Shown here: one piece after another, positions 185 through 48,615 of the stretch
Position numbering within the stretch: position 1 is the stretch's first letter
How the letters are laid out: each line of letters starts with the position of its first letter
Source: a phage
Assembly: GCA_024449565.1 (NCBI GenBank)
Contig: GCA_024449565.1_4810.1
Strand: one strand, 5' to 3'
DNA length: 64,000 nt
The notes under the pieces: generated by a model
Told to the model about the DNA's origin: nothing
Database searches by the model: none
Seen by the model: the letters and a program-made list of their open reading frames with translations, nothing else
Made by a program: the position numbers and the translations under genes

Positions 185-322
185 TCAGTGAATATTAAAA
201 AGCACTCCAGCAACTAAAACGCCAATCAGCATTGAGTCATAAACAGCCCATTTCCAAGAAAGCAAAGAGTTGCAATTAATATTTCGCACTTTAACATAAC
301 GTGACTGAATAATCTTTTGCAT
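185..322 (-). CDS. small hydrophobic protein (45 aa, below the ORF-track cutoff)
   Basis: ATG at 322 preceded by AAAGAGGAAG Shine-Dalgarno; translation MQKIIQSRYVKVRNINCNSLLSWKWAVYDSMLIGVLVAGVLFNIH with hydrophobic C-terminus. Confidence 0.35.
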   Translation of the reverse strand: MQKIIQSRYVKVRNINCNSLLSWKWAVYDSMLIGVLVAGVLFNIH

Positions 323-3785: not shown

Positions 3786-4202
3786 ATGAGCACAACAATT
3801 GTATTTGTCGTCCTACACAACGGCGAAGTCGTTAACGTATGCGAATATGAAGAACTGGCAAAGGCCACTGCTGCGAGATACGAAGGTGCTACTATTGACC
3901 CGTGGATTTTAGATGCGCGCAGCGTCTTGCAGGCGACTTTAGATGAGTGGTTGTTGGGTCGCAAGGTCTATCCAGTAGACAACATCGACTCAATTCAAGG
4001 CGAAACAGTATACTTTGAAGATGAATGCGTTCGCGGCATCGGCAAATTTATGGGATTGTGCCCATCTTCATCCAAAAATAAATTCTATCGTATTCAAGTT
4101 GAAGAAAACGATATGTTTGATAAAGTCACGCGCTCGATTGTTCCTGGCGGCGGAACTCCAATCTTTATGGCAGAATCAGACATCAAGGGGATTATCAAAT
4201 GA
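3786..4202 (+). CDS. hypothetical protein
   Basis: AAAGGAG SD 7 nt upstream of ATG; plus-strand gene inserted between minus-strand terL and portal. Confidence 0.5.
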   Translation: MSTTIVFVVLHNGEVVNVCEYEELAKATAARYEGATIDPWILDARSVLQATLDEWLLGRKVYPVDNIDSIQGETVYFEDECVRGIGKFMGLCPSSSKNKFYRIQVEENDMFDKVTRSIVPGGGTPIFMAESDIKGIIK

Positions 4203-4438
4203 GAACTTTAACCGAACTCGATGTTTTGAAAGACGTTGCAGCGGCGCTGGGCGTTGAAGTCTCTGAAAAGTCGACACTGGGTGCTCTGCGTCGTGATTTA
4301 CTCGAAGCCGTCGACCGCAACGATTTTGATCGTAAGTGTTTGCAAAAGAAGATTCGACAGGCAGTAAGGGCGGGTAAGCGATTCCGTGCCAGGTCGTTTG
4401 CCGCAAGAAAGCTCGACCTTCAGCACGGAATGCTTTAA
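4199..4438 (+). CDS. hypothetical protein
   Basis: ATGA overlap with upstream gene; basic C-terminus; a 9-bp stem (4381-4389 / 4423-4431) lies in its 3' end. Confidence 0.4.
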   Translation: MRTLTELDVLKDVAAALGVEVSEKSTLGALRRDLLEAVDRNDFDRKCLQKKIRQAVRAGKRFRARSFAARKLDLQHGML

Positions 4439-4441
4439 TTG

Positions 4442-5902
4442 TTAAAGGTTAGAGAAGAAGCCGGATGCTGCAACAATTGGTTTCATCAACGCCATGATTG
4501 CTGCGTCCGCTTTGTTAGGCGATTTGACTCCACGCTTTGCCATATCCTTTTTCGATTCAACTTTAAACTTACCAAGCACAGACGTGTCTTTGCGCGGCGC
4601 TGACATCTCAAAAAGAAATGTCTCAATTTCTTCCGCAGACCAAGCAGGAATCCCAAGTTCTGGAATGCCGTCTGTGTCGATGGAAATCAGCTCATCAGTC
4701 GGGTATACGGCCTGCCCTGTTGCATACTCATATGTCTTCCTGAATCGTTCGGCAATCTCAGTCCATTTTTGCGCTTTTATGTTTGCGAAATGGTCTTTAT
4801 TGAGTATTTCAACGTGTGGTAACTCAAGGAAGACGTCATCAGGATCATCAACAGCACCTTGCGCGTTGAACGCATTAAATTCGATTCTTGGGAATGTTGG
4901 ATTTTCATGGATTGCATACTCATTAAGCTCATCAAATTTTGAACCAGCAAATGCACCAACACCGATGGCGTCATAGGTAATTGATGCGCCGAATGTTAAT
5001 GCATCTTTCCAAACTCCGCTTGCGGACTTAAGCAATTCATCTTCCAGACCTTCCCATGTCTTGATGCCGCGCAATACGTTGCCCGTGACAAATGCTGTGG
5101 CGTTTAAGTCGTCGCCGTCGTCCGCCACGTCGAAGCCTATACGGTTAGACCCTGACAAGCTCCATCCCAGCGTAGGGTGTTTGTGGAGGTTTAGCGCGGC
5201 TTTGACGAATGCACGGTTGATTACAGATTTGTCGCCGCCAGTCTTCGGAACGCCGCCATAAACGTGCTCTGCCTTTTTTGGGTCGCGCTCGTACATGCCT
5301 GCGATAACGTCCAGCATTGTTTGCGACAAGAATGGATTATCTTGCCAGTTTATCTTTTTAACAATGGCATTCTTCGGCGGTCGCATAACAAAGTTCTGGT
5401 AGACAAAATCGGCCTCTTCATCAGGGTTAAAGATGATCCATATTTCTGACCCTTCTTTACGGATTGTTGGCTCAATAATGTCCCACTGTTCTTCAGTAAG
5501 CGCGTGCGCTTCTTCCAGCCAAAGTACGTCAACACCTTCCGTTGATTTGATTTCATCAACATTACGTGCGATACCATAAAATAGAAATTCAGATTTAGTT
5601 CTTTTATGTTCGATAGAGTTCTTTAATAAATTGAACTCATCTTTGAAATCAGAAATTTCTATTTTGTCTTTTAATAGAGTATATACAGATTCAGAAATCT
5701 TGTTCTGGAATTGTCGAACGCAAAGGAATTTTAATTTGAAGTTTGCCGCCAAATAAATAGCAAAACCAGCGGCATCATGCGATTTGGAAGATGCACGACC
5801 GCCGTATATTACTTTGTATCGCGCTTTCGTCTTCCAGACTTCTTTTAAAGCAGGATTCAACTGGTACATGACTTTCCAATTATGTGTTAGTATTTTATTC
5901 AT
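4442..5902 (-). CDS. terL: terminase large subunit
   Basis: Walker A GGRASSKS near N-terminus, ATPase plus nuclease two-domain length (486 aa), position upstream of portal. Confidence 0.9.
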   Translation of the reverse strand: MNKILTHNWKVMYQLNPALKEVWKTKARYKVIYGGRASSKSHDAAGFAIYLAANFKLKFLCVRQFQNKISESVYTLLKDKIEISDFKDEFNLLKNSIEHKRTKSEFLFYGIARNVDEIKSTEGVDVLWLEEAHALTEEQWDIIEPTIRKEGSEIWIIFNPDEEADFVYQNFVMRPPKNAIVKKINWQDNPFLSQTMLDVIAGMYERDPKKAEHVYGGVPKTGGDKSVINRAFVKAALNLHKHPTLGWSLSGSNRIGFDVADDGDDLNATAFVTGNVLRGIKTWEGLEDELLKSASGVWKDALTFGASITYDAIGVGAFAGSKFDELNEYAIHENPTFPRIEFNAFNAQGAVDDPDDVFLELPHVEILNKDHFANIKAQKWTEIAERFRKTYEYATGQAVYPTDELISIDTDGIPELGIPAWSAEEIETFLFEMSAPRKDTSVLGKFKVESKKDMAKRGVKSPNKADAAIMALMKPIVAASGFFSNL

Positions 5903-6080: not shown

Positions 6081-6296
6081 ATGAAACTCATCGACCGCGC
6101 CATCAAAGCCATTGATAATCACTCCACAGCGATTGCTTTCGTAATGGGATTTTGTTTCACTGCTGCGTTTGGCGACGTTCACACATTCAAGTCTGTCATC
6201 TTGTGTTGGTCCATTTGGTCACTTATTTCTCTGGTTTTGATTCTTCCGATGACGTGGCTTGTTCTTACTTGTCTTGAATCTCAAGGTGAAGACTGA
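6081..6296 (+). CDS. small membrane protein, two predicted TM helices (holin-like topology)
   Basis: GGAGGT SD; two hydrophobic segments in 71 aa. Confidence 0.45.
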   Translation: MKLIDRAIKAIDNHSTAIAFVMGFCFTAAFGDVHTFKSVILCWSIWSLISLVLILPMTWLVLTCLESQGED

Positions 6297-6517: not shown

Positions 6518-6740
6518 ATTAACCTTAACGGTGCCAAAAGAAGTGCTAGACAAGGCATATGCAGATTCTGTAAAAGAATTAGCCGTAGTGCTTGGAATTG
6601 AAAGTGAATTCAACGTTCAGCTTCAATTCCTAAAAGATACTCTTCAAATCAAAGAGAATAGAGAGGCTGGCGGCGGTGCGCCTTTAGCTTTGGCAATAAT
6701 CTATGCGGGATTAATTTTGAAGTCTGGAGATGAACTGTGA
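6507..6740 (+). CDS. hypothetical protein
   Basis: Start trimmed to ATG MANELTL with GGAGTGGA SD. Confidence 0.4.
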   Translation: MANELTLTVPKEVLDKAYADSVKELAVVLGIESEFNVQLQFLKDTLQIKENREAGGGAPLALAIIYAGLILKSGDEL

Positions 6741-6936
6741 ATCGTTGGTGCAGTTGGAAGTTGAAACGTCTTGCCTGGGCCAATGCCGCCAATTCTGCTG
6801 GTGTCATCACCGCTGGCGTTGGGTCGGTATGGGATGGCGAAGGCCGTTGGGACTCGCTGTGTGGCACGCGCCTATTCTTTCGCGTAAAATAATTATCGCC
6901 CTTCCCGAAATGGGAAGGGAATTTAAAGAGGTTATC

Positions 6937-7278
6937 ATGAACAACACTTTGTCACAACTGTTAATCTGGACTATCGCTGCTATCATCGGCACCGTTATTA
7001 TGATGTCAAGTGCAAAGGCTGAAACGGATATTTGCGGCAGACTTATTTCTGAAAACGGCGAAATTTATTATGGCAACTCAAAAGGTGATTATATATCGCC
7101 TGAAGTTTGCGCTCAGAAGAAAGCAGAAATGCAAAAGCAGTATCATGAAGATCAATCTATATCTCAAGCCGCGCTGATTGAATTAAGTATATCAGCCATC
7201 ATCTTTCTAATCGTTTTTATGCTCATTATTAAACCAAATAATGGCAGCCACCGTCATATTCCTCTCAAAAGAAATTAA
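6937..7278 (+). CDS. small membrane or secreted protein
   Basis: Start trimmed to ATG MNNTLSQ with AAAGAGG SD; N-terminal hydrophobic signal-like segment and C-terminal TM segment. Confidence 0.45.
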   Translation: MNNTLSQLLIWTIAAIIGTVIMMSSAKAETDICGRLISENGEIYYGNSKGDYISPEVCAQKKAEMQKQYHEDQSISQAALIELSISAIIFLIVFMLIIKPNNGSHRHIPLKRN

Positions 7279-11134: not shown

Positions 11135-11755
11135 TGCAAATTTCCTGTGGGTACAAAATAGTACGGTACTGTCTAGGACTTTTTCTTTGAAAAGTTAGTG
11201 GACCAAATGTGTCGTATTTTGATTAGTGTACCGCAAATTCCATCAAGTAGCAAAACGCACCAAAAGACCCATGCCCTAAAAACCACACGAACGCAATAAT
11301 CAATCGCCGTTACAGTTTCCAGCGTTACAATTAGAAAGCGAATGATTCGATGCATAATAATATGAAGCATAATGATTCGAAAGCTAATGGTTGCGCGTAG
11401 GATGATATCGGGAGGGATTATTCGAGATGCGTGTAATTTCGCATGCGTACTATTTTCGGGCGAAGGGTCGGCATATTCTTCGTTTTAGCTCGGAACGAAG
11501 GGAAAGTTTTGCGCCTTTATAAAACAACGACTTACGCGACCCGCCTTAACGGTCCGATATAGGTGTCTATATAAAACAAGGACTTACGCGATGTTCTCCA
11601 TTTAACGTAATACCTGTTATGCGAACTAAGGCGCATCTCGACGAAGATTGTGCGACGACGAAGGGAAGGATAAAGGAGTTTTCGCGTAGGAGCTCATCGA
11701 GATAGGGACGAAGAAAAGCCGCGACTAAGCGCGGCCTATTAGTAACGGAAGGGTA

Positions 11756-41334: not shown

Positions 41335-41582
41335 GCAACAAAGTATTGTTAATTGGTCCGCCAGCTTGCGGCAAAACGACTAGCGCAAAGAATATTGCTG
41401 AAGTCATGGGATTGAATAACATTTACGACATAGGAAAGGGTGGAGAAGACAATTTTAAGTCCGCACTCAAAGATGACAAGGAAGGTCTTTATGTCACTGT
41501 GAAATTACCGCGCGGCATTCGCCGTGAACAATTTGATATTGTAATTGAAGTCAACAGAGGATTTATCGATGTCAGATATTAA
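41331..41582 (+). CDS. small P-loop NTPase-like protein
   Basis: Walker A GPPACGKTT near N-terminus; only 83 aa. Confidence 0.35.
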   Translation: MSNKVLLIGPPACGKTTSAKNIAEVMGLNNIYDIGKGGEDNFKSALKDDKEGLYVTVKLPRGIRREQFDIVIEVNRGFIDVRY

Positions 41583-42126
41583 TTGGGAAGATGATTTGCC
41601 GCAGGTTGCTCCTGAGAGCATTCAAGAGCGCCTTGCGCGCTTAGTATCGGAATTGGCAGAACGCCAAGAAGCTTTGACAGAGCTTGAAGATGAAGCTGAT
41701 ATGCAAAAGCAGCGCATCAGTGAAATCAAAACTGTTCTGCTTCCTGGTGTTATGGATGAGCTTGGCGTGTCCGAAATCAAGCTTGAAGACAAGACCAAAA
41801 TCAAGGTCGAGTCAAAAGTGAATGCTTCAATCAAGAAAGAAAACGAATTAAAAGTTTTCGATTGGCTTGTCAACAACGGTTACGGCGGCCTGATCAAGTC
41901 CAGCGTCACGGCTGAGTTCGGTCGCGAAGAAATCGAACAGGCGCAAGAGATTGTTGCCGCACTGCGTGAAGATGGTGTTGAAGCCACATTGAAACAAGGC
42001 GTTCATTCTGCTACACTGAAGTCGTTTGTAAAAGAACAGCTGGAAGCAGGCAATCCAGTTAGTGAAGATATTAGCGTTTTTGAATACAAAGAAGCTAAAA
42101 TAACCTTGCCTAAAAGCAAAAAGTAA
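41569..42126 (+). CDS. hypothetical coiled-coil protein
   Basis: Start trimmed to ATG MSDINWEDD with AGAGGA SD. Confidence 0.4.
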   Translation: MSDINWEDDLPQVAPESIQERLARLVSELAERQEALTELEDEADMQKQRISEIKTVLLPGVMDELGVSEIKLEDKTKIKVESKVNASIKKENELKVFDWLVNNGYGGLIKSSVTAEFGREEIEQAQEIVAALREDGVEATLKQGVHSATLKSFVKEQLEAGNPVSEDISVFEYKEAKITLPKSKK

Positions 42127-42185
42127 TTTAACCTTTATCTTGAAATCAGGTTGCCACGAAACTTGATACTATAGGAAAATATCAA

Positions 42186-43046
42186 ATGTCTAAGAAAGAA
42201 ACTACCGAAGTTGCAGCGAAAAACACCCAGATGTCCGCTATGGCTGATTTTGTCGACATGACCGATTTTGGCGCTGGTTTTGAAGGTGCCGATGCCGATG
42301 CGTATGCCATTCCTTTTATCGTCGTACTGCAAAAGATGTCTCCGATGGTCGACGAAGATGATCCAAAACACGTGCCTGGCGCAAAAGCTGGTATGCTGTA
42401 CAACACCGTTACTGGTGAGTTGTATGACGGCAAGAAAGGCGTGCAGATCATCCCTTGTGCATTCAAACGCACCTTCATCCTTTGGGGCGGTCGCGAGTCC
42501 GACGATAAAGGCTTTAAAGGTGAATTCACCAAAGAGCACGTTGATGCAGAAGTCGCGGCAGGCCGCGCTGTTGAAATCAACGGTAAGGTGTTTGTTCCAG
42601 ACGAAAACGGCAAAGTGCACGAGAAAAAATCTCCTTACTATGCAGATACACGTAACCACTTCGTCATTCTGTTGAATGAAGAAACGGGTGAATTTGGCAG
42701 CGCCATGTTGTCTTTGACTTCTTCAATGATCAAGCCGTCTCGAATGCTGATGACCGCGCTACAGCAGAAGAAAGTTCAGACTCCGCAAGGTCTGAAAACG
42801 CCGCCGACCTTTATGAACATCGTTCGCATGGGTGCTGCATCCCAGTCCAAAGACGGCAACACCTGGTCCGTTCTGAAGTTTGAGCTGGAAGGTCTGGTGC
42901 AGGACAAAGGTCTGTACGAAGTCGCCAAAGCATTCCACAACGACGTGGTTGGCGGCAACGTTAACATTGACCGCAGCAAGCAGGAAGAAGCAAGCGGTGC
43001 CGCTGGTCCTGTCAATGAAACTCCGACCGACGCAGAAGAGTTTTAA
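42186..43046 (+). CDS. putative ssDNA-binding protein (acidic C-terminal tail ending in Phe)
   Basis: C-terminus ...NETPTDAEEF resembles the acidic F-terminated tails of T7 gp2.5, T4 gp32 and bacterial SSB; weak evidence. Confidence 0.3.
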   Translation: MSKKETTEVAAKNTQMSAMADFVDMTDFGAGFEGADADAYAIPFIVVLQKMSPMVDEDDPKHVPGAKAGMLYNTVTGELYDGKKGVQIIPCAFKRTFILWGGRESDDKGFKGEFTKEHVDAEVAAGRAVEINGKVFVPDENGKVHEKKSPYYADTRNHFVILLNEETGEFGSAMLSLTSSMIKPSRMLMTALQQKKVQTPQGLKTPPTFMNIVRMGAASQSKDGNTWSVLKFELEGLVQDKGLYEVAKAFHNDVVGGNVNIDRSKQEEASGAAGPVNETPTDAEEF

Positions 43047-43103
43047 TCGACAATCAAATCAACAAGGCTGCCGATTGGCGGCCTTTTATTTATCTGGTGC
43101 ATC

Positions 43104-43622
43104 ATGATAGAAAGAATTGTACCGCTCCTGAAGATTCTGGCCCTTGTCGGCGCGTTTGCCGCTGGATCATACGTTGAAGACCTTAAGCAAACCAACGCAT
43201 CACTGGCCAAGGATAATCAATATCTGACATCGCTTAATGAGCGTAAGGACAAGATAAATGCACTCGAAGAGCAAATTGCAACTTTACAGGTTGAATCGGC
43301 ATCGGCATATGAGAAGGGTCGCCAGGAAGCGCAACTGGTTGCTGATGACACTATTGCTCGTTACAAGTCTGGGAATATCAAGCTGCGCGAGCAACTCAGC
43401 TGCTCCCGTGAGTTACTCAGGAGTGTGCCCGACTCTGCGACCACTGGACGCCTCTCTATCCCAGAAGGAAACTGTGGACTATCAGAAGAAGATGTCAGAT
43501 TTCTTGTTCAGTTCGCCGCAGAAACAAATCGATTAAAAGAGAAAGTTAATAGCTTGATTGATACTTATAATCAGGCTAAAATAAAAATCGATCAATTCAA
43601 TGCATCAAAGGAAAATAAATGA
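43104..43622 (+). CDS. Rz-like inner-membrane spanin (i-spanin)
   Basis: N-terminal TM segment IVPLLKILALVGAFAAGSYV then coiled-coil periplasmic domain; contains an embedded +1-frame lipoprotein ORF. Confidence 0.5.
   Translation: MIERIVPLLKILALVGAFAAGSYVEDLKQTNASLAKDNQYLTSLNERKDKINALEEQIATLQVESASAYEKGRQEAQLVADDTIARYKSGNIKLREQLSCSRELLRSVPDSATTGRLSIPEGNCGLSEEDVRFLVQFAAETNRLKEKVNSLIDTYNQAKIKIDQFNASKENK
43309..43536 (+). CDS. Rz1-like outer-membrane lipoprotein spanin (o-spanin), embedded
   Basis: +1 frame inside the i-spanin gene: basic n-region, hydrophobic core, lipobox-like ISSC, Pro-containing mature peptide; start uncertain (43258, 43309 or 43345). Confidence 0.4.
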   Translation: MRRVARKRNWLLMTLLLVTSLGISSCASNSAAPVSYSGVCPTLRPLDASLSQKETVDYQKKMSDFLFSSPQKQID

Positions 43623-44242
43623 AACAGATTTATGCAAACATTCGCCATTGGGCTTCTGACCGTAACATCATCCAAGGTTGCGACCTTAAGGACCAATACC
43701 CGAAGCTTATCAGCGAGTTTGGGGAGTTAACCGACCACGTTGATCAACTCCATGACCTTGTGTTCTTCGACCCTGAAATTGGCTATACAGAGCAGGCCAT
43801 CTGTGACTTGCAGGCCGCAATTAAGGACGACATTGGCGATTGCCTTGTTGTGTTGACCATCCTGGCAGCGCAAAACGGTACTGAAATCGAAAACATTAAT
43901 GGCGGCGGTTGCGCTGATAAAGGTGCTCACCCTCATTCATTTATCCTTCGCCTGGCAAAGACCCTTGGACGACTTGGTGATGCTATTGCCAAGAATCAGA
44001 CCATGGATATTGACGTCACCATCATGGCCGCAGTCGATTACCTTTCCGGCGTAGCTCATGATTATGGCCTTCGCTTATCCGACTGTGCGCAAGCGGCCTA
44101 CGAAGACATCAAGGACCGCAAAGGTGTCATGTACAACGGAACGTTCATCAAATCTACTGATCCAGCTTATGAGCACTCCTGCAAAATGGTAAAGAAGCTG
44201 GAACTTGAAGACCGTGTGATCAGAGAAGTTACAGGACAATAA
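43619..44242 (+). CDS. MazG-like nucleoside triphosphate pyrophosphohydrolase
   Basis: EFGEL ... DIGDCLVVLTILAAQNG resembles the MazG E-x-x-E and helix motifs. Confidence 0.5.
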   Translation: MKQIYANIRHWASDRNIIQGCDLKDQYPKLISEFGELTDHVDQLHDLVFFDPEIGYTEQAICDLQAAIKDDIGDCLVVLTILAAQNGTEIENINGGGCADKGAHPHSFILRLAKTLGRLGDAIAKNQTMDIDVTIMAAVDYLSGVAHDYGLRLSDCAQAAYEDIKDRKGVMYNGTFIKSTDPAYEHSCKMVKKLELEDRVIREVTGQ

Positions 44243-44244
44243 TT

Positions 44245-45207
44245 ATGACAGCATTAAAACCAATGAAGGGTTGCCAACGTAAGCAGATTATCGAGCGCGG
44301 CGAAGATGTGCCGCTGCCTTGCGGACTTTCATTCAAGGTCGATGGCATACGCGCAATGGCGTATGACAACTTGCCAATGGGCACATCCGGCATGGCGCTG
44401 AGAAACGTTCAAATCAAAAAAGAGTTCCTCTTTTTGGGTGAACTAATTCACGGACTTGATGGAGAGCTAATCGACGGCAATCCAAATGACAAGAACGTCA
44501 TGCAACAGGCCTATACTGCATGCATGAATACTGATGCAATCACTAACTTTACATGGTGGGTGTTTGATGACTTCAGCGACCCTGATTTGCCTTTTGAAAA
44601 GCGTTATGCAAACTATCGAGCTAGAGTTGCTGAAGTTAATCAACATCTCATCAACCATGGTCGACGCCCATTCCTTCGCGCTCTCGAATATCGCAACATC
44701 GAAAATATGGAGCAGTACGCGGCAATGCAAATCGAAGCAGACCAGCTTGGCTATGAAGGCTTGTATGGCAAGTCTTGGACGGGCAAATACAAGCATGGCC
44801 GCGCAACGCCAAAGTCACGTGATGTGTGGAAGGACAAGCCGTGGACAGATGAAGAAGGGTTGATCATAGACTTCGTTGAGATGATGGAGAACAACAACGA
44901 AGCATTCATTGACGAATTGGGTCGCACCAAGCGTTCAAAAGAGGCTGAAGGCTTAGTTGCAAAAGGATACCTTGGATCATTTGTAGTTGTCAATCCAAAA
45001 TATGTTGATGAGAAAGGTGAAATGATTCCTTTCCGCGTCTCCGCTGGTTCAATGCCTATGGCAGAGAGAAAAATGCTTTGGGAGAATCGCGAGAATTATC
45101 GAAACAAGTATTTGACATATAAATTCTTTAACTTTGGCATAGTTGACGTGCCGCGCTCTGCCTTGTATAAGTGCTTCCGTGATATTACCGATATGGAGTA
45201 TTTTTAA
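44245..45207 (+). CDS. ATP-dependent DNA ligase
   Basis: Motif I KVDGIR (adenylation Lys), later EGLIID and EGLVAKG motifs; 320 aa. Confidence 0.75.
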   Translation: MTALKPMKGCQRKQIIERGEDVPLPCGLSFKVDGIRAMAYDNLPMGTSGMALRNVQIKKEFLFLGELIHGLDGELIDGNPNDKNVMQQAYTACMNTDAITNFTWWVFDDFSDPDLPFEKRYANYRARVAEVNQHLINHGRRPFLRALEYRNIENMEQYAAMQIEADQLGYEGLYGKSWTGKYKHGRATPKSRDVWKDKPWTDEEGLIIDFVEMMENNNEAFIDELGRTKRSKEAEGLVAKGYLGSFVVVNPKYVDEKGEMIPFRVSAGSMPMAERKMLWENRENYRNKYLTYKFFNFGIVDVPRSALYKCFRDITDMEYF

Positions 45208-45281
45208 CACACTGGATAAATAATTGTTGCGTATAATCTATCGCGCCGTTTTCTAGAATTTAATATACAGTGTATACATAA

Positions 45282-45309
45282 AGCCGGAAATTTCCGGCTT
45301 TTCTTTTAT
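45282..45309 (+). terminator. rho-independent terminator
   Basis: AGCCGGA-AATT-TCCGGCT hairpin followed by a T-run. Confidence 0.65.
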
Positions 45310-45338
45310 TTACTTTCGGCGTATTTACTTTCAAAACC

Positions 45339-45367
45339 TTGAGCCTATACTATTAATATTCATAATC
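45339..45367 (+). promoter_or_regulatory. sigma70-like promoter TTGAGC-17-ATAATC
   Basis: Hexamers upstream of the 45383 gene. Confidence 0.35.
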
Positions 45368-45382
45368 AAAAGGTGAATTATA

Positions 45383-45925
45383 ATGAAAGCGAACAAATTA
45401 AAGATTGTTTTGATCATCATCATGGCTATGCTGACAGTTATATTCTTCACCAAGACTGCATCGGCTGAAAATATGTTTACGCCGCCGAATGGAAGTGCAA
45501 AAGTTTTGACAAGATATTTCAACAATGGGCAGTCATTTGAGTTTTGCTGGAATAAATACGACGTAATAAAAGAAAGATTTGACAAAGAAAAGATGTGCGT
45601 AATGAATGATCGCGGTCGGCAGGTCGTGTCGTTTGTGTTCGGAATGTCAATGGCAAAAGTTGATGCCCCTGAAATCGTTGTCAGGTATAATACATTGGAC
45701 AGCGGCCTTGTCGACAAGACATACCCTGTTGCAGTAGACAGCAGGACAGGCGGCGCACTAATACTCACTCCAGAAGATAAATCAGATGTCGTTAACATGC
45801 TCATCAACAGCAAAGACGTAATCGTGTTTTATCACATTGAAGGCGTATCAGACTACCAAATGGCCTACTATCCACTGCCCTTGAGAGATGCTTCAGGTAA
45901 TGTTAAGACACAGGAAGTGCGTTGA
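45383..45925 (+). CDS. secreted protein
   Basis: Signal peptide MKANKLKIVLIIIMAMLTVIFFTKTASA; AAAAGGTGA SD. Confidence 0.5.
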   Translation: MKANKLKIVLIIIMAMLTVIFFTKTASAENMFTPPNGSAKVLTRYFNNGQSFEFCWNKYDVIKERFDKEKMCVMNDRGRQVVSFVFGMSMAKVDAPEIVVRYNTLDSGLVDKTYPVAVDSRTGGALILTPEDKSDVVNMLINSKDVIVFYHIEGVSDYQMAYYPLPLRDASGNVKTQEVR

Positions 45926-46152
45926 CATGGGTGGTAGTTATGCAGAAAGATTTGGAAGAAAACAAAAGGCTGAAAAAGGCTTTGACGTCTCAAATCTTAT
46001 CCCTGTTGGTAAAGCTTATTGGGGAGTCAATTAGCAACAAGGTGGCACGGGCCGCGATTGTGGGTGCAATTGGTATGGCGGGGTATTATTTCGACTTACC
46101 AGACATTGATACAAGTTCCGCTCCGCCCGTCCAAGTTGAAGCCGTAAAATAA
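45922..46152 (+). CDS. hypothetical small protein
   Basis: ATGA overlap with upstream gene; one weakly hydrophobic segment. Confidence 0.4.
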   Translation: MTWVVVMQKDLEENKRLKKALTSQILSLLVKLIGESISNKVARAAIVGAIGMAGYYFDLPDIDTSSAPPVQVEAVK

Positions 46153-46154
46153 AC

Positions 46155-46177
46155 AAAGGCCCATATGGGCCTTTTTC
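46155..46177. terminator. bidirectional intrinsic terminator
   Basis: A-run, GGCCC-ATAT-GGGCC hairpin, T-run between convergent genes. Confidence 0.65.
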
Positions 46178-46822
46178 TTACATAACTGCTAGTGCATCTT
46201 TGTAACGCTTTCTTCGCAACTCACCGTGGTTTGCTGCGTTCGGCGCGGCCCCGTTAATCCGCTTAACGGTTGAATCAAAATTTCCTGCATCCGCAAGAGG
46301 AATACAGCCGCTATTCTTAAAGAACCATGCCGCGCTGTCAGCAATGTATTTTGGTTCAGTCAGAATATCAGGATTGTTCAATGCATCATAGCCTGATTGA
46401 CGCGTATATTCCGCATAGTTGGCCTTTCCAGTCAGCTGAATGGCACCACGGCCACGGTACTTCCAACCGTCGCCAGATGCTACTGAACCGTTGCCCATGC
46501 GGTTTGCATATGTATTATTGGCGATTTCCACAGGTTTACGGGCAATCGACAGTGCCAATGAGTTCGGGGCACTTCCAGAGCGACCGTTGACGCTGTAACG
46601 ACTAGGCCATGTATTGGCAAGACCTTGAGCGGAATAATTCAGATTTTCCACAAAGGTCTTCAGACTGCCTGTTTCCACTCCTACGTTTGCAAGCAGCGCC
46701 GCGACGGCATTCTTGCTTTTGATTCCGTAGTGCTCACAAGCCTGCTTGAAGGGGTCGACCCATTTTTCAGCAACATCCATGCTGCATCCGGTCCCTTTAG
46801 ATATTACGTTTGCATTAATCAT
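46178..46822 (-). CDS. endolysin, glycoside hydrolase family 19-like
   Basis: GRGAIQLTGKANY signature and upstream GVETGS segment. Confidence 0.7.
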   Translation of the reverse strand: MINANVISKGTGCSMDVAEKWVDPFKQACEHYGIKSKNAVAALLANVGVETGSLKTFVENLNYSAQGLANTWPSRYSVNGRSGSAPNSLALSIARKPVEIANNTYANRMGNGSVASGDGWKYRGRGAIQLTGKANYAEYTRQSGYDALNNPDILTEPKYIADSAAWFFKNSGCIPLADAGNFDSTVKRINGAAPNAANHGELRRKRYKDALAVM

Positions 46823-46830
46823 AAATCACC

Positions 46831-48615
46831 TTATGCGCTTCTGTACCAGCCGTTCAAGACGACATATCGCGGCAGAGTTGAAACAGCCGTCGGCACGGAC
46901 TGTCCTGCATCGCCAGTGTTACCGACCACATCGTGAGTGTGAGCGGGAAGTGTATAGCTGTGGCTGTGATTTCCGGAAAATTGAATATTCAAGCCATGGG
47001 TGTGTGAACCAGAAGATTGAATATTGTGGACATGGTTGCCGTTAGTTGAAGTGTTGAATTTGTAGTTATCATAATCCGTCTTTCTGCTTCCAATGTTGTT
47101 GTTTGTTCCATCATAAACTCCGTATCGAGCTTGGTCGGCAAACGCCTCGCCCCATCCGCTGTCGTGATGGTGGTTACCAGCTGCATCCATACCGTGAGAG
47201 TGAGCACCGTTTTGGCTTGTATCACCTATGTGGTTATGGTTGCCTGCGTCTCCAGTGGTATTTGACCATGGACCACTTTGTCGCGTGGTAATGTTCACGC
47301 TGTGATTGTGGAGTGGAAGCATTGCAGCGGTAAGGGTAACAGAGTCTGCACCGCCTGTATCAAGACCGTTTCGCGCCGTGCCAGACGTGCGAATCACCAT
47401 GTTATCAGGCAACCTTGTCCATACCTGACCGTAAGCGCCCAGTTTAGTATTTGGGTTAGTCCCGTTGGTAAGGAATCGAGTCTCACCAACTTCGAATACG
47501 TCGCCCATGGTAATCAACTTCGCGGCAAGCGCGTCAAGTTGCCTTTTGGTAACAAATTGCTGCGGCTCCGTAGCATCAACGCCGATTTGCGCCGCGCCGA
47601 ATGCCTGAAGAAGACGCCAAACAGTGCCGTCATAGATGATGGTGAATGGCAACAGGCCTACGATAGCGCCAGCTGGCAACTCGCTGCCGTCGAATCCAAG
47701 AACGGCAACTTTGTTTACACCAATGGTCACGGTGACAGGTCCGGTAGTCGTCACATCATTGACGATTGTCAGGCGACTACCTGCTGACGGAGGCCATGAA
47801 TACCCTGCTGGAACGGTAAGGATTATGTCTTGCGCTCCTTTACCTGATGCAAGATTCGGCGTTCCAATTTGCACGTCTTGAACAGTGGCATTTTGAATCC
47901 AAGCACTCCAAGCACCAGAAGTATAAGAGCGAGTAAACAAATAGCCATTCATTGATGTATATTGCTGCAAGGCAAAGGTTTGCGCATCGACCTGCCAAGC
48001 GCAGACCTGCAGCCGACCTGCAACCTTCGTTGCGCCAACTGCATTCGGGATGTTAGAGCACAGAGCGGCGACGGAATCGGATTGAATCACGATAGTTGTG
48101 GAAGTCGTGATATTATCGAAGTCCACAAAACTTGAAATCAATCCACGAACAAAGTACGGGTTTTGCGCATCGCCGCCAGCAGGCATCGGAATGTATTTTC
48201 GCGCTTCGCTGGGCAGCGTTAATTCCTGCCAAGATTCCGTTTCTCCGTTGGCTGGCACGGCGCTTGTGTTGCCGTCGACCACGCTTTGAAAGATGCGCCA
48301 CTCAGGCGCTGAAGGCGTTCCAGAGTTGCTTACTACGATGGCGTTTTTCGGGTATCCATCCGGCTTCAAGTCAGAAGAGAAATATTGTTGAGCGCCATGA
48401 TCTTGAATAAACATAAGGTTGTCTGTAATCAAATTCAGCAACCAGTTCATGGATTCGCGCTCAACAGCTTTCGCGGCGACGTTTCCAGCCTCCAGGGCAA
48501 GCGCATAGTCAGGGGTGTAGCCGCGCTGGAAGTTCACATAACCACTTGGGCTTGCATCCGGCACCACGGATACATCACCGCTTTGCGCGAAAGGTCTGTT
48601 AATAAGTGTTGGCAT
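46831..48615 (-). CDS. tail fiber protein with C-terminal HxH repeats
   Basis: Start trimmed to ATG MPTLINR with AGAGGA SD; NHNH, AHSHG, NHHHD, HVHN, HTHG, HSHS, HTHD runs near C-terminus. Confidence 0.65.
   Translation of the reverse strand: MPTLINRPFAQSGDVSVVPDASPSGYVNFQRGYTPDYALALEAGNVAAKAVERESMNWLLNLITDNLMFIQDHGAQQYFSSDLKPDGYPKNAIVVSNSGTPSAPEWRIFQSVVDGNTSAVPANGETESWQELTLPSEARKYIPMPAGGDAQNPYFVRGLISSFVDFDNITTSTTIVIQSDSVAALCSNIPNAVGATKVAGRLQVCAWQVDAQTFALQQYTSMNGYLFTRSYTSGAWSAWIQNATVQDVQIGTPNLASGKGAQDIILTVPAGYSWPPSAGSRLTIVNDVTTTGPVTVTIGVNKVAVLGFDGSELPAGAIVGLLPFTIIYDGTVWRLLQAFGAAQIGVDATEPQQFVTKRQLDALAAKLITMGDVFEVGETRFLTNGTNPNTKLGAYGQVWTRLPDNMVIRTSGTARNGLDTGGADSVTLTAAMLPLHNHSVNITTRQSGPWSNTTGDAGNHNHIGDTSQNGAHSHGMDAAGNHHHDSGWGEAFADQARYGVYDGTNNNIGSRKTDYDNYKFNTSTNGNHVHNIQSSGSHTHGLNIQFSGNHSHSYTLPAHTHDVVGNTGDAGQSVPTAVSTLPRYVVLNGWYRSA

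What the first reader, a model, noticed from the sequence alone, without database searches (positions are those of the whole stretch)
43104..43622. Embedded Rz/Rz1-type spanin pair located in the replication operon, 2.5 kb from the endolysin
The i-spanin-like gene contains a complete +1-frame ORF with a lipoprotein-type signal (ISSC lipobox-like) and Pro-containing mature region, the classic embedded architecture. The pair sits between an SSB-like gene and MazG on the plus strand, while the GH19 endolysin is on the minus strand at 46178 and no holin is adjacent. Lysis genes are scattered rather than in a cassette.
Basis: partly seen in the sequence, partly recalled or inferred. Interest (0 to 1): 0.5.

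Follow-up and report, generated by a model that had tools for sequence, protein, structure and literature searches.

The report
Embedded spanin gene pair, already catalogued
This is a real pair of nested phage genes (an Rz/Rz1-type spanin) that most likely breaks the host's outer membrane at the end of infection, but the same pair is already listed in the spanin database and annotated in closely related E. coli phages, so it is ordinary.

Summary
Window 43104-43622 (+) encodes a 172-aa membrane-anchored, two-helix protein that matches PHROG 1327 "Rz-like spanin" (E 5.7e-27). Entirely inside it, in the +1 frame (43258-43536), lies an ORF with a consensus lipoprotein signal (lipobox ISSC). The window is a Wifcevirus-type E. 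coli myophage, about 95% identical in DNA to WFH, ECML-117 and Mansfield. The nested ORF, its lipobox Cys and a second Cys are intact in 14 Wifcevirus genomes, in four metagenomic relatives (53-66% i-spanin identity), and in Pantoea LIET2, Yersinia PY54 and Burkholderia Mica. Across those three phages the nested protein is better conserved (41-45%) than its host frame (27-30%). In PY54 and Mica the homologous pair follows a holin and an endolysin. It is already known: ECML-117's pair (98.8% identical i-spanin) is in Kongari et al. 2018, and Mansfield and Bas98-101 carry i-/o-spanin annotations. Its position after a conserved terminator, coupled to MazG and ligase and 2.5 kb from the endolysin, is conserved, and unlinked spanins have a T4 precedent. 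"No holin adjacent" needs a caveat: a 69-aa homologue of the lysis-related protein PA1-LRP abuts the endolysin. No experiment exists for this pair.

The parts
43064..43085 (+). Intrinsic terminator hairpin (9 pairs, 6 G-C, followed by a T-run) between the Pam3_Gp34-like gene and the i-spanin gene. It probably attenuates transcription into the Rz/Rz1-MazG-ligase unit.
   Evidence: Found by the terminator scan. Annotated as a terminator in WFH and Mansfield. The hairpin is kept, with sequence changes that preserve pairing, in L019-L022 and in Pantoea phage Kyle. The intergenic stretch has low diversity (pi 0.0075).
43104..43622 (+). i-spanin (Rz-like) CDS, 172 aa. The RBS is weak (GGTG). The stop TGA overlaps the MazG-like start codon (ATGA at 43619-43622).
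   Evidence: PHROG 1327 'Rz-like spanin' E 5.7e-27. 98.8% identical to the ECML-117 i-spanin of SpaninDB. hhalign of the family profile against lambda Rz gives E 2.8e-5.
43116..43175 (+). N-terminal transmembrane anchor of the i-spanin (residues about 5-24, IVPLLKILALVGAFAAGSYV). Only MIER precedes it, giving an N-in/C-out type II topology.
   Evidence: Hydropathy scan gives 1.75 over residues 1-19. It is helical in the AF2 model. SpaninDB starts the periplasmic domain at residue 25, EDLQQ....
43176..43421 (+). Periplasmic helix 1 of the i-spanin (to residue 106), including the conserved GN-x2-L-x5-C motif with Cys100.
   Evidence: The AF2 model has a continuous helix 5-106 with pLDDT 86-93 over residues 31-90. 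G90, N91, L94 and C100 are invariant in 8 lineages. C100 aligns with lambda Rz Cys99.
43422..43484 (+). Non-helical linker of the i-spanin (residues 107-127), including Cys124. This is the part of Rz that shares DNA with the conserved core of the o-spanin.
   Evidence: AF2 model: no secondary structure at 107-127 and a pLDDT dip to 57.
43485..43616 (+). Periplasmic helix 2 of the i-spanin (residues 128-171).
   Evidence: AF2 model helix 128-171.
43245..43249 (+). Shine-Dalgarno AAGGA, 8 nt upstream of the first ATG of the nested ORF.
   Evidence: AAGGA plus an ATG at the same spacing is present in all five Wifcevirus-like lineages. The frame-0 residue that supplies the 'AT' of the ATG varies (N/Y/H/D), and the Lys codon is AAG in all five.
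43258..43536 (+). o-spanin (Rz1-like) ORF in the +1 frame, fully embedded. The long form is 92 aa from ATG 43258, as annotated in Mansfield and Bas98-101. The short form is 75 aa from ATG 43309, as in SpaninDB. Both give the same mature product.
   Evidence: Weak PHROG 4306 'Rz-like spanin' match, E 8.6e-4. 41-45% identical to the embedded o-spanins of LIET2, PY54 and Mica.
43375..43386 (+). Lipobox I-S-S-C. The Cys codon at 43384-43386 is the predicted lipidation and cleavage site. Ala then Ser follow it (no Asp at +2), which predicts outer-membrane sorting.
   Evidence: Regex and hydropathy test. The Cys is invariant in 14 genomes and in all distant homologues. The lipobox consensus is quoted.
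43384..43533 (+). Mature o-spanin, 50 aa (CASNSAAPVSYSGVCPTLRPLDASLSQKETVDYQKKMSDFLFSSPQKQID). It carries a second conserved Cys and the family motif CP-x3-P-x-D-x2-L-x3-ET-x-D[YF]Q-x2-MS-x-FLF.
   Evidence: Alignment A1 and the translations. No variable site at 43443-43489 among 14 genomes.
46178..46822 (-). Canonical (no signal-anchor) GH19-type endolysin, the last gene of the minus-strand structural operon. It is the partner lysis function.
   Evidence: Pfam PF00182 31.3 bits and PHROG 181 E 4e-69. No TMD in the hydropathy scan.
45943..46152 (+). 69-aa protein with an amphipathic helix and a Gly/Ala-rich hydrophobic stretch, convergent with the endolysin. It is a homologue of Pantoea phage PA1-LRP and a candidate, unproven, holin-like helper.
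   Evidence: tblastn to PA1 gives 51.9% identity, E 4e-4, and to Kyle E 1e-10. The published primers map PA1-LRP to that ORF. Alignment A5. PHROG 5165.

Best explanation
The locus is a two-component spanin of the embedded (lambda Rz/Rz1) architecture in a Wifcevirus-type E. coli myophage.

Proposed mechanism (inferred from the lambda model, not shown for this phage): the 172-aa i-spanin is anchored in the inner membrane by its N-terminal helix. It extends two long periplasmic helices joined by a flexible linker. [quoted passage not shown] The two subunits bind through their C-terminal parts and span the periplasm through the peptidoglycan mesh, probably stabilised by intermolecular disulfides (i-spanin C100 and C124; o-spanin second Cys). 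They stay inert until the GH19 endolysin removes the peptidoglycan. They then collapse and fuse the inner and outer membranes, which completes lysis.

Because the complex is inert until the wall is degraded, the genes can sit outside a lysis cassette. Here they are the first genes after a conserved terminator in the replication arm. The RBS is weak and the stop codon overlaps the MazG-like start codon, so they are probably made at a low level together with MazG and ligase.

Shown here: sequence anatomy, homology and conservation.
Inferred: lipoprotein processing, complex formation, membrane fusion and expression timing.
For: Identity of the phage
- 95% DNA identity to Wifcevirus genomes.

i-spanin
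- PHROG 1327 Rz-like spanin, E 5.7e-27.
- N-terminal TMD.
- AF2 model: helix 5-106, linker 107-127, helix 128-171, mean pLDDT 79.8.
- The family profile aligns to lambda Rz at E 2.8e-5, with Cys100 on lambda Cys99.
- The homologue in Mica (tblastn E 2e-6) passes Pfam PF03245 at 62.4 bits.

o-spanin
- Consensus lipobox and signal.
- Intact in 14 of 14 Wifcevirus genomes, in 4 of 4 relatives at 53-66% i-spanin identity, and in LIET2, PY54 and Mica.
- 41-45% identity in the nested frame against 27-30% in the host frame.
- The third frame is full of stops.
- An exhaustive phmmer search finds seven further small (64-98 aa) homologous proteins.

Context of homologues
- In PY54 and Mica the homologous pair follows a holin and an endolysin.

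Selection
- Diversity of the spanin gene (pi about 0.024) is lower than in MazG (0.10) and ligase (0.073).

Prior curation
- ECML-117 is listed as an embedded pair in SpaninDB.
- Mansfield and Bas98-101 are annotated i-spanin/o-spanin.

Model
- The statement that spanins stay inert within the peptidoglycan mesh until the endolysin acts comes from Kongari 2018.
Against: - No experiment exists for this pair or any close relative: no lipid labelling, no complementation, no mutant phenotype.
- The window's i-spanin does not itself reach Pfam PF03245 (no hit at E <= 0.1). The o-spanin hits no Pfam or NCBIfam model, and its PHROG matches are weak (best 8.6e-4).
- The mature o-spanin has only 8% Pro, unlike lambda Rz1.
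- The pair is not linked to a recognisable holin, and the phage's holin is unidentified.
- Neither protein is listed among the proteins the vB_Eco4M-7/ECML-117 mass-spectrometry study identified in the passages I read. This is weak evidence, because small membrane proteins are easily missed.
- The structure search against viral models was uninformative.
Confidence: 0.9

Rival explanations
1. Only the 172-aa protein is real. The nested +1 ORF is an untranslated by-product of the host frame's sequence, and outer-membrane disruption is done by something else.
For: Alternative-frame open stretches of this length are not rare: 8.7% of synonymous shuffles reach 92 codons or more. The ORF has no Pfam or NCBIfam match. 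Several GenBank records of relatives do not annotate it.
Against: The signal peptide, lipobox Cys, second Cys and a 30-residue motif are conserved in lineages whose host-frame proteins are only 27-30% identical, and the nested frame is the better conserved one. Only 0.84% of shuffles give a lipoprotein-type ORF. A conserved Shine-Dalgarno sequence plus ATG sits in front of it. Failure to annotate o-spanins is a documented problem: 196 of 528 were missed according to Kongari 2018.
Confidence: 0.03
2. The 172-aa membrane-anchored coiled-coil protein works in DNA replication, for example as a membrane organiser like phi29 p16.7, as its operon context would suggest. Its resemblance to Rz is then only that of generic coiled coils.
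For: It lies between replication genes and is translationally coupled to MazG and ligase. There is a marginal PHROG 6682 'GP16.7-like replication protein' match, E 0.048. There is no direct Pfam Rz hit.
Against: The PHROG Rz match is 25 orders of magnitude better. The conserved C-terminal half (GN-x2-LR...C...CGLS-x2-D-x2-FL) is shared with proteins that sit in canonical lysis cassettes in PY54 and Mica. The nested lipoprotein gene is unexplained by this reading.
Confidence: 0.03
3. The pair is a genuine spanin, but it is made early or mid-infection as part of a lysis programme tuned for the very short latent period reported for Wifcevirus. The locus after the terminator would be a dedicated 'envelope-protein slot' rather than an accident of genome mosaicism.
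For: The position after a conserved terminator is kept in relatives at 53-66% i-spanin identity. In Pantoea phage Kyle the same slot holds a different 201-aa protein with hydrophobic, Gly-rich stretches (my reading of the sequence). The BASEL paper cites a report of 3-5 min from adsorption to release for two Wifcevirus isolates.
Against: There are no transcript data. The Kyle protein has no assigned function (PHROG 1544 'unknown function'; no holin Pfam hit). Unlinked spanins occur in T4 without any such special explanation.
Confidence: 0.2

Closest known systems
Escherichia phage ECML-117 embedded i-spanin/o-spanin pair (SpaninDB entries ECML-117_EIS/EOS; Kongari et al. 2018, PMC6139136). The same genes are annotated in Escherichia phages Mansfield (CPT_Mansfield_057/058) and Bas98-101.
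   Same: It is the same gene pair. The i-spanin is 98.8% identical. The architecture, lipobox and genomic position are the same.
   Different: Only a few substitutions differ. SpaninDB starts the o-spanin at the internal ATG (75 aa), whereas Mansfield and Bas start it at the upstream ATG (92 aa). In 2018 the pair was a singleton family. Relatives at 53-66% i-spanin identity now exist in metagenomes.
Yersinia phage PY54 ORF63 Rz-like spanin with embedded o-spanin. Pantoea phage LIET2 gp065 and Burkholderia phage Mica gp32/gp31 are similar.
   Same: Both subunits are homologous: i-spanin 27-30% and o-spanin 41-45% identity. They share the embedded +1 architecture, the conserved Cys residues and the ET-x-D[YF]Q-x2-MS-x-FLF motif.
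   Different: In PY54 and Mica the pair directly follows a holin and an endolysin in a canonical cassette. In the window it is unlinked and sits in the replication arm. Their signal peptides are short (15-20 aa).
Lambda Rz/Rz1 (prototype embedded two-component spanin; Pfam PF03245 Phage_lysis and the Rz1 lipoprotein)
   Same: The architecture is the same: a type II membrane protein with two periplasmic helices and a linker, and a small outer-membrane lipoprotein nested in the +1 frame over the linker region. The i-spanin shows remote homology (hhalign E 2.8e-5, Cys100 aligned with lambda Cys99).
   Different: The window's i-spanin does not reach the Pfam threshold. The o-spanin shows no detectable similarity to lambda Rz1 and is much less Pro-rich (8% here; lambda has 10 Pro in 40 residues). 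The pair is not adjacent to a holin and endolysin.
T4 pseT.3/pseT.2 spanins
   Same: These are spanin genes located away from the holin and endolysin genes.
   Different: The T4 genes have the separated architecture, not the embedded one. No sequence relationship was tested or claimed.
PB1-type unimolecular spanins of Pbunavirus (distant relatives of Wifcevirus)
   Same: They have the same presumed role in related myophages.
   Different: Pbunaviruses use a single-chain u-spanin with an AWAC lipobox, together with a pinholin and a SAR endolysin. The window uses a two-component spanin with a canonical GH19 endolysin, so the lysis genes have been exchanged between the two genera.

Membership tests
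Two-component spanin, embedded architecture (criteria of Kongari et al. 2018) | The i-spanin is a type II inner-membrane protein with a single N-terminal TMD. | tested here: met
   Hydropathy 1.75 over residues 1-19, and no other TMD. Only MIER precedes the helix. SpaninDB sets the periplasmic domain from residue 25.
Two-component spanin, embedded architecture (criteria of Kongari et al. 2018) | The periplasmic domain of the i-spanin is largely alpha-helical, with two helical (coiled-coil) segments joined by a linker. | tested here: met
   AF2 model: helices 5-106 and 128-171, linker 107-127, mean pLDDT 79.8. Oligomeric coiled-coil formation itself was not tested.
Two-component spanin, embedded architecture (criteria of Kongari et al. 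2018) | The o-spanin has an outer-membrane lipoprotein signal with lipobox [LVI][ASTVI][GAS]C. | tested here: met
   ISSC is preceded by a basic n-region and the hydrophobic core LLMTLLLVTSLG. The Cys is invariant in all homologues. No dedicated predictor (LipoP or SignalP) was available.
Two-component spanin, embedded architecture (criteria of Kongari et al. 2018) | No inner-membrane retention signal (Asp at +2 after the lipidated Cys), so the lipoprotein goes to the outer membrane. | tested here: met
   The mature N-terminus is C-A-S in the window. It is C-V-S, C-A-R, C-A-N or C-K-S in relatives. The sorting rule is from established knowledge of the Lol pathway.
Two-component spanin, embedded architecture (criteria of Kongari et al. 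2018) | The o-spanin gene lies wholly inside the i-spanin gene in the +1 frame. | tested here: met
   43258-43536 lies within 43104-43622, with a frame offset of +1.
Two-component spanin, embedded architecture (criteria of Kongari et al. 2018) | Periplasmic cysteines are available for homotypic intermolecular disulfides. | tested here: met
   i-spanin C100 is invariant in 8 lineages and C124 is present in 7 of 8. The mature o-spanin has a second Cys in the CP motif. Disulfide formation is not testable here.
Two-component spanin, embedded architecture (criteria of Kongari et al. 2018) | Lipoprotein processing, i-/o-spanin complex formation, and complementation of a lambda Rz/Rz1 lysis defect. 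| not testable with these tools
   No experimental data were found for Wifcevirus spanins in the papers searched.
Lysis cassette membership (holin-endolysin-spanin cluster) | The spanin genes are adjacent to, and co-oriented with, the holin and endolysin genes. | tested here: not met
   The endolysin is 2.56 kb away on the other strand, and no recognised holin was found. This is not a defining feature of spanins, as T4 shows.
Pfam PF03245 Phage_lysis (bacteriophage Rz lysis protein) | A score at or above the gathering threshold (25.4 bits). | tested here: not met
   The window protein has no hit at E <= 0.1. Relatives are sub-threshold (L021 18.7, LIET2 22.3, PY54 17.1 bits) and only Mica passes (62.4 bits). 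Remote homology is supported by hhalign against lambda Rz, E 2.8e-5, probability 74%.
PHROG 1327 (Rz-like spanin) | A significant full-length profile match. | tested here: met
   E 5.7e-27, 95.5 bits, residues 6-160 on profile positions 9-156 of 158.
Lambda Rz1-type o-spanin (Pro-rich Rz1 lipoprotein family) | Sequence similarity to lambda Rz1, or a Pro-rich mature domain. | tested here: not met
   The nested ORF hits no Pfam model of any kind, which I take to include the Rz1 lipoprotein family. It has 4 Pro in 50 residues. It belongs instead to the PY54/LIET2/Mica o-spanin sequence family.

The most novel reading that the evidence does not exclude
Two things remain open. First, the Wifcevirus o-spanin may really be translated from the conserved upstream ATG (43258). 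That start has a conserved AAGGA Shine-Dalgarno sequence and would give an unusually long (42-aa), highly basic lipoprotein signal peptide, possibly alongside the internal start at 43309. Second, the whole pair may be expressed with the replication genes from a conserved 'envelope-protein slot' downstream of an attenuating terminator. That would be an arrangement tuned to the very short latent period reported for this genus.
Probability: 0.2. Interest if true: 0.3.

Novelty: already known. Interest (0 to 1): 0.1.

Why it matters
It matters little beyond correct annotation. Many GenBank records of this genus still label the i-spanin 'hypothetical protein' and omit the nested o-spanin, and the RefSeq records I inspected (WFH, ECML-117, FEC19) name only the i-spanin. 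This locus is therefore a clean example of why embedded lipoprotein genes need a dedicated search. It also shows that this phage group has a complete outer-membrane disruption function while its holin is still unidentified. That gap is relevant to anyone who wants to explain the very fast lysis reported for Wifcevirus phages or to engineer them.

Tried and rejected
- Pfam and NCBIfam scans of both spanin subunits gave no usable hit.
- A Foldseek search of the AF2 i-spanin model against BFVD gave nothing below E = 1, as expected for an extended two-helix protein.
- The IMG/VR scan returned only four near-identical loci.
- The word-indexed protein search returned only five clusters. These did lead to the useful relatives with 53-66% i-spanin identity.
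- The exhaustive phmmer search with the o-spanin found 15 proteins. Eight are long (276-3061 aa) proteins matched in 3-12 separate stretches, which I discount as compositional matches.
- I recalled the Kyle slot protein as a 'GTA 3TM holin'. Pfam did not confirm this (no such hit), so I dropped the label.
- Holin search: hydropathy flagged the small proteins at 185-322 (-), 6081-6296 (+), 6730-7278 (+) and 11173-11370 (-).
- tblastn of the Kyle slot protein against the window found nothing.
- The PDB sequence search with the upstream Pam3_Gp34-like protein found nothing, so 'SSB-like' stays untested.
- Rfam found no RNA family at 42900-46300.
- Within-genus substitutions in the overlap were too few (18 variable sites) to separate selection on the two frames.
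Full report
**What the window is.** A megablast of 41500-47000 finds 29 phage records at 90-99% identity. All are Wifcevirus-type E. coli/Shigella myophages, including vB_EcoM_WFH, WFC, ECML-117, FEC19, Mansfield, vB_Eco4M-7 and Bas98-101. The genome has two convergent arms. The plus-strand arm carries replication and nucleotide-metabolism genes: DNA polymerase, helicases, DUF7307, Pam3_Gp34-like, the finding, MazG-like and ATP-dependent ligase. The minus-strand arm carries the structural genes, and its last gene is the endolysin.

**The observation.** ORF 43104-43622 (172 aa) and the nested +1 ORF 43258-43536 (92 aa) are present as described.

The outer protein has one N-terminal hydrophobic segment. 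It matches PHROG 1327 'Rz-like spanin' over its whole length (E 5.7e-27) and PHROG 2466 more weakly. It has no Pfam or NCBIfam hit.

The nested ORF reads MHSKSKLQLYRLNRHRH-MRRVARKRNWLLMTLLLVTSLGISSC-ASNS.... ISSC fits the consensus lipobox [LVI][ASTVI][GAS]C (consensus quoted). It is preceded by a basic n-region and a hydrophobic core. Its PHROG matches to Rz-like spanin families are weak (best E 8.6e-4).

**Is it more than chance?** Length alone is not convincing. In 5000 synonymous-codon shuffles of the Rz gene, 8.7% reach an alternative-frame open stretch of 92 codons. Only 0.84% give an ORF with a lipoprotein-type signal by my criteria.

Conservation settles the question:
- The nested ORF, its lipobox Cys and a second Cys are intact in all 14 Wifcevirus genomes compared.
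- The protein search found four metagenomic relatives whose i-spanins are 53-66% identical to the window's. All four loci (L019-L022) have the nested lipoprotein ORF (MRKAAKNLRPLRIALLLLTGLAISGC..., and similar).
- Three distant phages also carry a homologous nested ORF: Pantoea LIET2, Yersinia PY54 and Burkholderia Mica.
- Across these distant phages the nested protein is 41-45% identical to the window's, whereas the host-frame protein is only 27-30% identical.
- The family shares a motif: lipobox-C, then 12-16 residues, then CP-x3-P-x-D-x2-L-x3-ET-x-D[YF]Q-x2-MS-x-FLF.
- The third frame is closed by 6-17 stops in each of the four genes examined.
- An exhaustive phmmer run with the 75-aa form found seven further small (64-98 aa) proteins of this family. 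It also found long multi-stretch matches that I discount as compositional.

**Anatomy of the i-spanin.** An AF2 model built on a 6-sequence alignment has mean pLDDT 79.8. It shows one helix from residue 5 to 106 (membrane anchor plus a long periplasmic helix), a non-helical linker at 107-127, and a second helix at 128-171. This is the lambda Rz plan as described in Kongari 2018.

The mature o-spanin is encoded over Rz residues about 94-144, that is, over the linker and the helix ends. This is where Kongari et al. place lambda Rz1 relative to Rz.

G90, N91, L94, C100, G125, D130, L134, V148 and L151 are invariant in eight lineages.

A profile of the eight sequences aligns to lambda Rz at E 2.8e-5 (probability 74%), and window Cys100 falls on lambda Cys99. 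Of the relatives, only Mica's i-spanin passes the Pfam PF03245 threshold (62.4 bits). L021, LIET2 and PY54 are sub-threshold. The window protein is therefore a remote relative of the Rz family, not a scored Pfam member.

**Context of homologues.** In PY54 the homologous pair follows a holin and a glycoside hydrolase. In Mica it follows a holin and a SAR endolysin. This independently ties the family to lysis.

**Position in the genome.** A 9-bp G+C-rich hairpin followed by a T-run (43064-43085) sits directly upstream. It is annotated as a terminator in WFH and Mansfield. The hairpin is kept, with changes that preserve pairing, in L019-L022 and even in Pantoea phage Kyle.

No sigma-70-like promoter was found between the terminator and the start codon. 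The i-spanin RBS is weak (GGTG). Its TGA stop overlaps the MazG-like ATG (ATGA). The likeliest reading, which is inference, is low-level expression by terminator read-through, together with MazG and ligase.

The gene order DNA polymerase, helicase, DUF7307, Pam3_Gp34, Rz/Rz1, MazG-like, ligase, two small genes, then the convergent endolysin is fully visible in L019-L021. The short contig L022 shows only the stretch from DUF7307 to the start of the ligase gene. The placement is therefore old and stable, not a recent accident.

The spanin gene is also less diverse within the genus (pi about 0.024) than MazG (0.10) or ligase (0.073).

Spanins away from the holin and endolysin have a textbook precedent in T4 pseT.3/pseT.2. 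They are also mechanistically unproblematic, because the complex is held inert by the peptidoglycan mesh until the endolysin acts (model quoted).

**Start codon of the o-spanin.** SpaninDB uses the internal ATG (43309, 75 aa). Mansfield and Bas98-101 use the first ATG (43258, 92 aa).

In all five Wifcevirus-like lineages the upstream ATG is present with AAGGA 8 nt before it. This holds even though the frame-0 residue that supplies the 'AT' varies (Asn, Tyr, His, Asp), and the Lys codon inside the Shine-Dalgarno sequence is AAG every time. The internal ATG has no Shine-Dalgarno sequence and could be conserved simply because frame 0 needs Tyr-Glu there.

I therefore favour 43258, which implies a 42-residue, very basic signal peptide. 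Either start gives the same 50-residue mature lipoprotein.

**Prior knowledge.** ECML-117 (i-spanin 98.8% identical) is listed in Kongari et al. 2018 as an embedded two-component spanin. It forms a singleton family for both subunits, and its coordinates and sequences are in the supplementary tables. Mansfield (2019) annotates i-spanin and o-spanin with RBSs. Bas98-101 (2025) annotate both. The RefSeq records inspected (WFH, ECML-117, FEC19) name the i-spanin 'Rz-like spanin'. The finding is correct but already known.

One point of interest concerns the distantly related Pbunavirus (PB1-like) phages. They use a unimolecular spanin with an AWAC lipobox, together with a pinholin and a SAR endolysin. 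The lysis genes have therefore been exchanged between the two genera.

**The rest of the lysis system.** The endolysin (46178-46822, minus strand) is GH19-type and has no N-terminal hydrophobic segment, so a holin is expected. No ORF in the window matches a holin family.

However, a conserved two-gene unit lies between the ligase terminator and the endolysin:
- One gene encodes a 180-aa protein with a signal peptide (45383-45925).
- The other encodes a 69-aa protein (45943-46152) with an amphipathic helix and a Gly/Ala-rich hydrophobic stretch.

The 69-aa protein is a homologue of Pantoea phage PA1-LRP. I mapped the published primers onto the PA1 genome to confirm which ORF that is. In that study, LRP expressed alone inhibited E. 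coli growth, and it enhanced killing when co-expressed or fused with the homologous endolysin. No holin had been found in that phage either. That evidence is modest, but it means 'no holin is adjacent' should read 'no recognised holin'.

All three functions lie within 3.7 kb around the point where the two arms converge.

**Verdict.** The locus is a real, well-conserved, embedded two-component spanin. It is a new isolate's copy of an already catalogued pair, in a conserved but non-cassette position. Its function is inferred from homology and anatomy and has not been demonstrated. Interest is low.

Noticed in passing
window 45943-46152 (+): A 69-aa protein convergent with, and 25 nt from, the endolysin. 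It has an invariant IL-x-LLV-x-L-x-GE amphipathic helix and a Gly/Ala-rich hydrophobic stretch ending GYY[FY]. It is a homologue of Pantoea phage PA1-LRP, a reported 'lysis-related protein' that enhances killing when co-expressed or fused with the endolysin (PMC11538084). It is a candidate holin-like factor.
   Followed up: partly
window 45383-45925 (+): A 180-aa protein with a classical signal peptide (…TKTASA/EN) and two invariant Cys. It always lies directly upstream of the LRP-like gene in the window, L019-L021, Kyle and PA1. The pair has promoter-like hexamers in front (45324-45366) and terminators on both sides (45280-45301 and 46155-46174). Its function is unknown.
   Followed up: partly
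L024 (Pantoea phage Kyle) 3520-4125: At the position that holds Rz/Rz1 in the window (after the conserved terminator, overlapping the MazG start), Kyle has an unrelated 201-aa protein. It has a Gly-rich N-terminus and, by my reading of the sequence, two C-terminal hydrophobic segments. It matches PHROG 1544 (unknown function). No Rz homologue is present in the 13-kb Kyle stretch examined.
   Followed up: partly
L019 9065-9520 and L020 9078-9530 (minus strand): Two metagenomic relatives keep the whole gene order but carry a different, 150-aa endolysin (PHROG 90/17029) in place of the 214-aa GH19 enzyme. The endolysin has been swapped while the spanin and the LRP-like module stayed.
   Followed up: partly
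window 43258 versus 43309: Public resources disagree on the o-spanin start: 75 aa in SpaninDB and 92 aa in Mansfield and Bas98-101. The conserved AAGGA plus ATG favours the longer form, which has an unusually long basic n-region.
   Followed up: yes
It ends in an acidic tail (…TDAEEF) and has no PDB sequence match. A 31.2-kDa 'unknown protein' (the size expected for 286 aa) was found by mass spectrometry in vB_Eco4M-7 and ECML-117; equating it with this gene is my inference from size and gene order. Its role is unverified.
   Followed up: partly
window 6081-6296 (+): A 71-aa protein with one strong hydrophobic segment (Kyte-Doolittle 2.32) and a second weaker one by eye. It has no PHROG match at E <= 0.01 and only a marginal Pfam match (E 0.05). 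It lies far from the other lysis genes, next to the terminase gene.
   Followed up: partly
window 43623-45000 (+): MazG-like and ligase are much more diverse within the genus (pi 0.10 and 0.073) than the spanin gene (0.024). The annotated MazG length differs between relatives (594 versus 624 nt).
   Followed up: no
L007 (vB_EcoM_WFC) 4001-4510: In the WFC lineage the i-spanin is two residues shorter (170 aa, ending …SKEK) because of a change at the very 3' end, next to the overlap with the MazG start.
   Followed up: no
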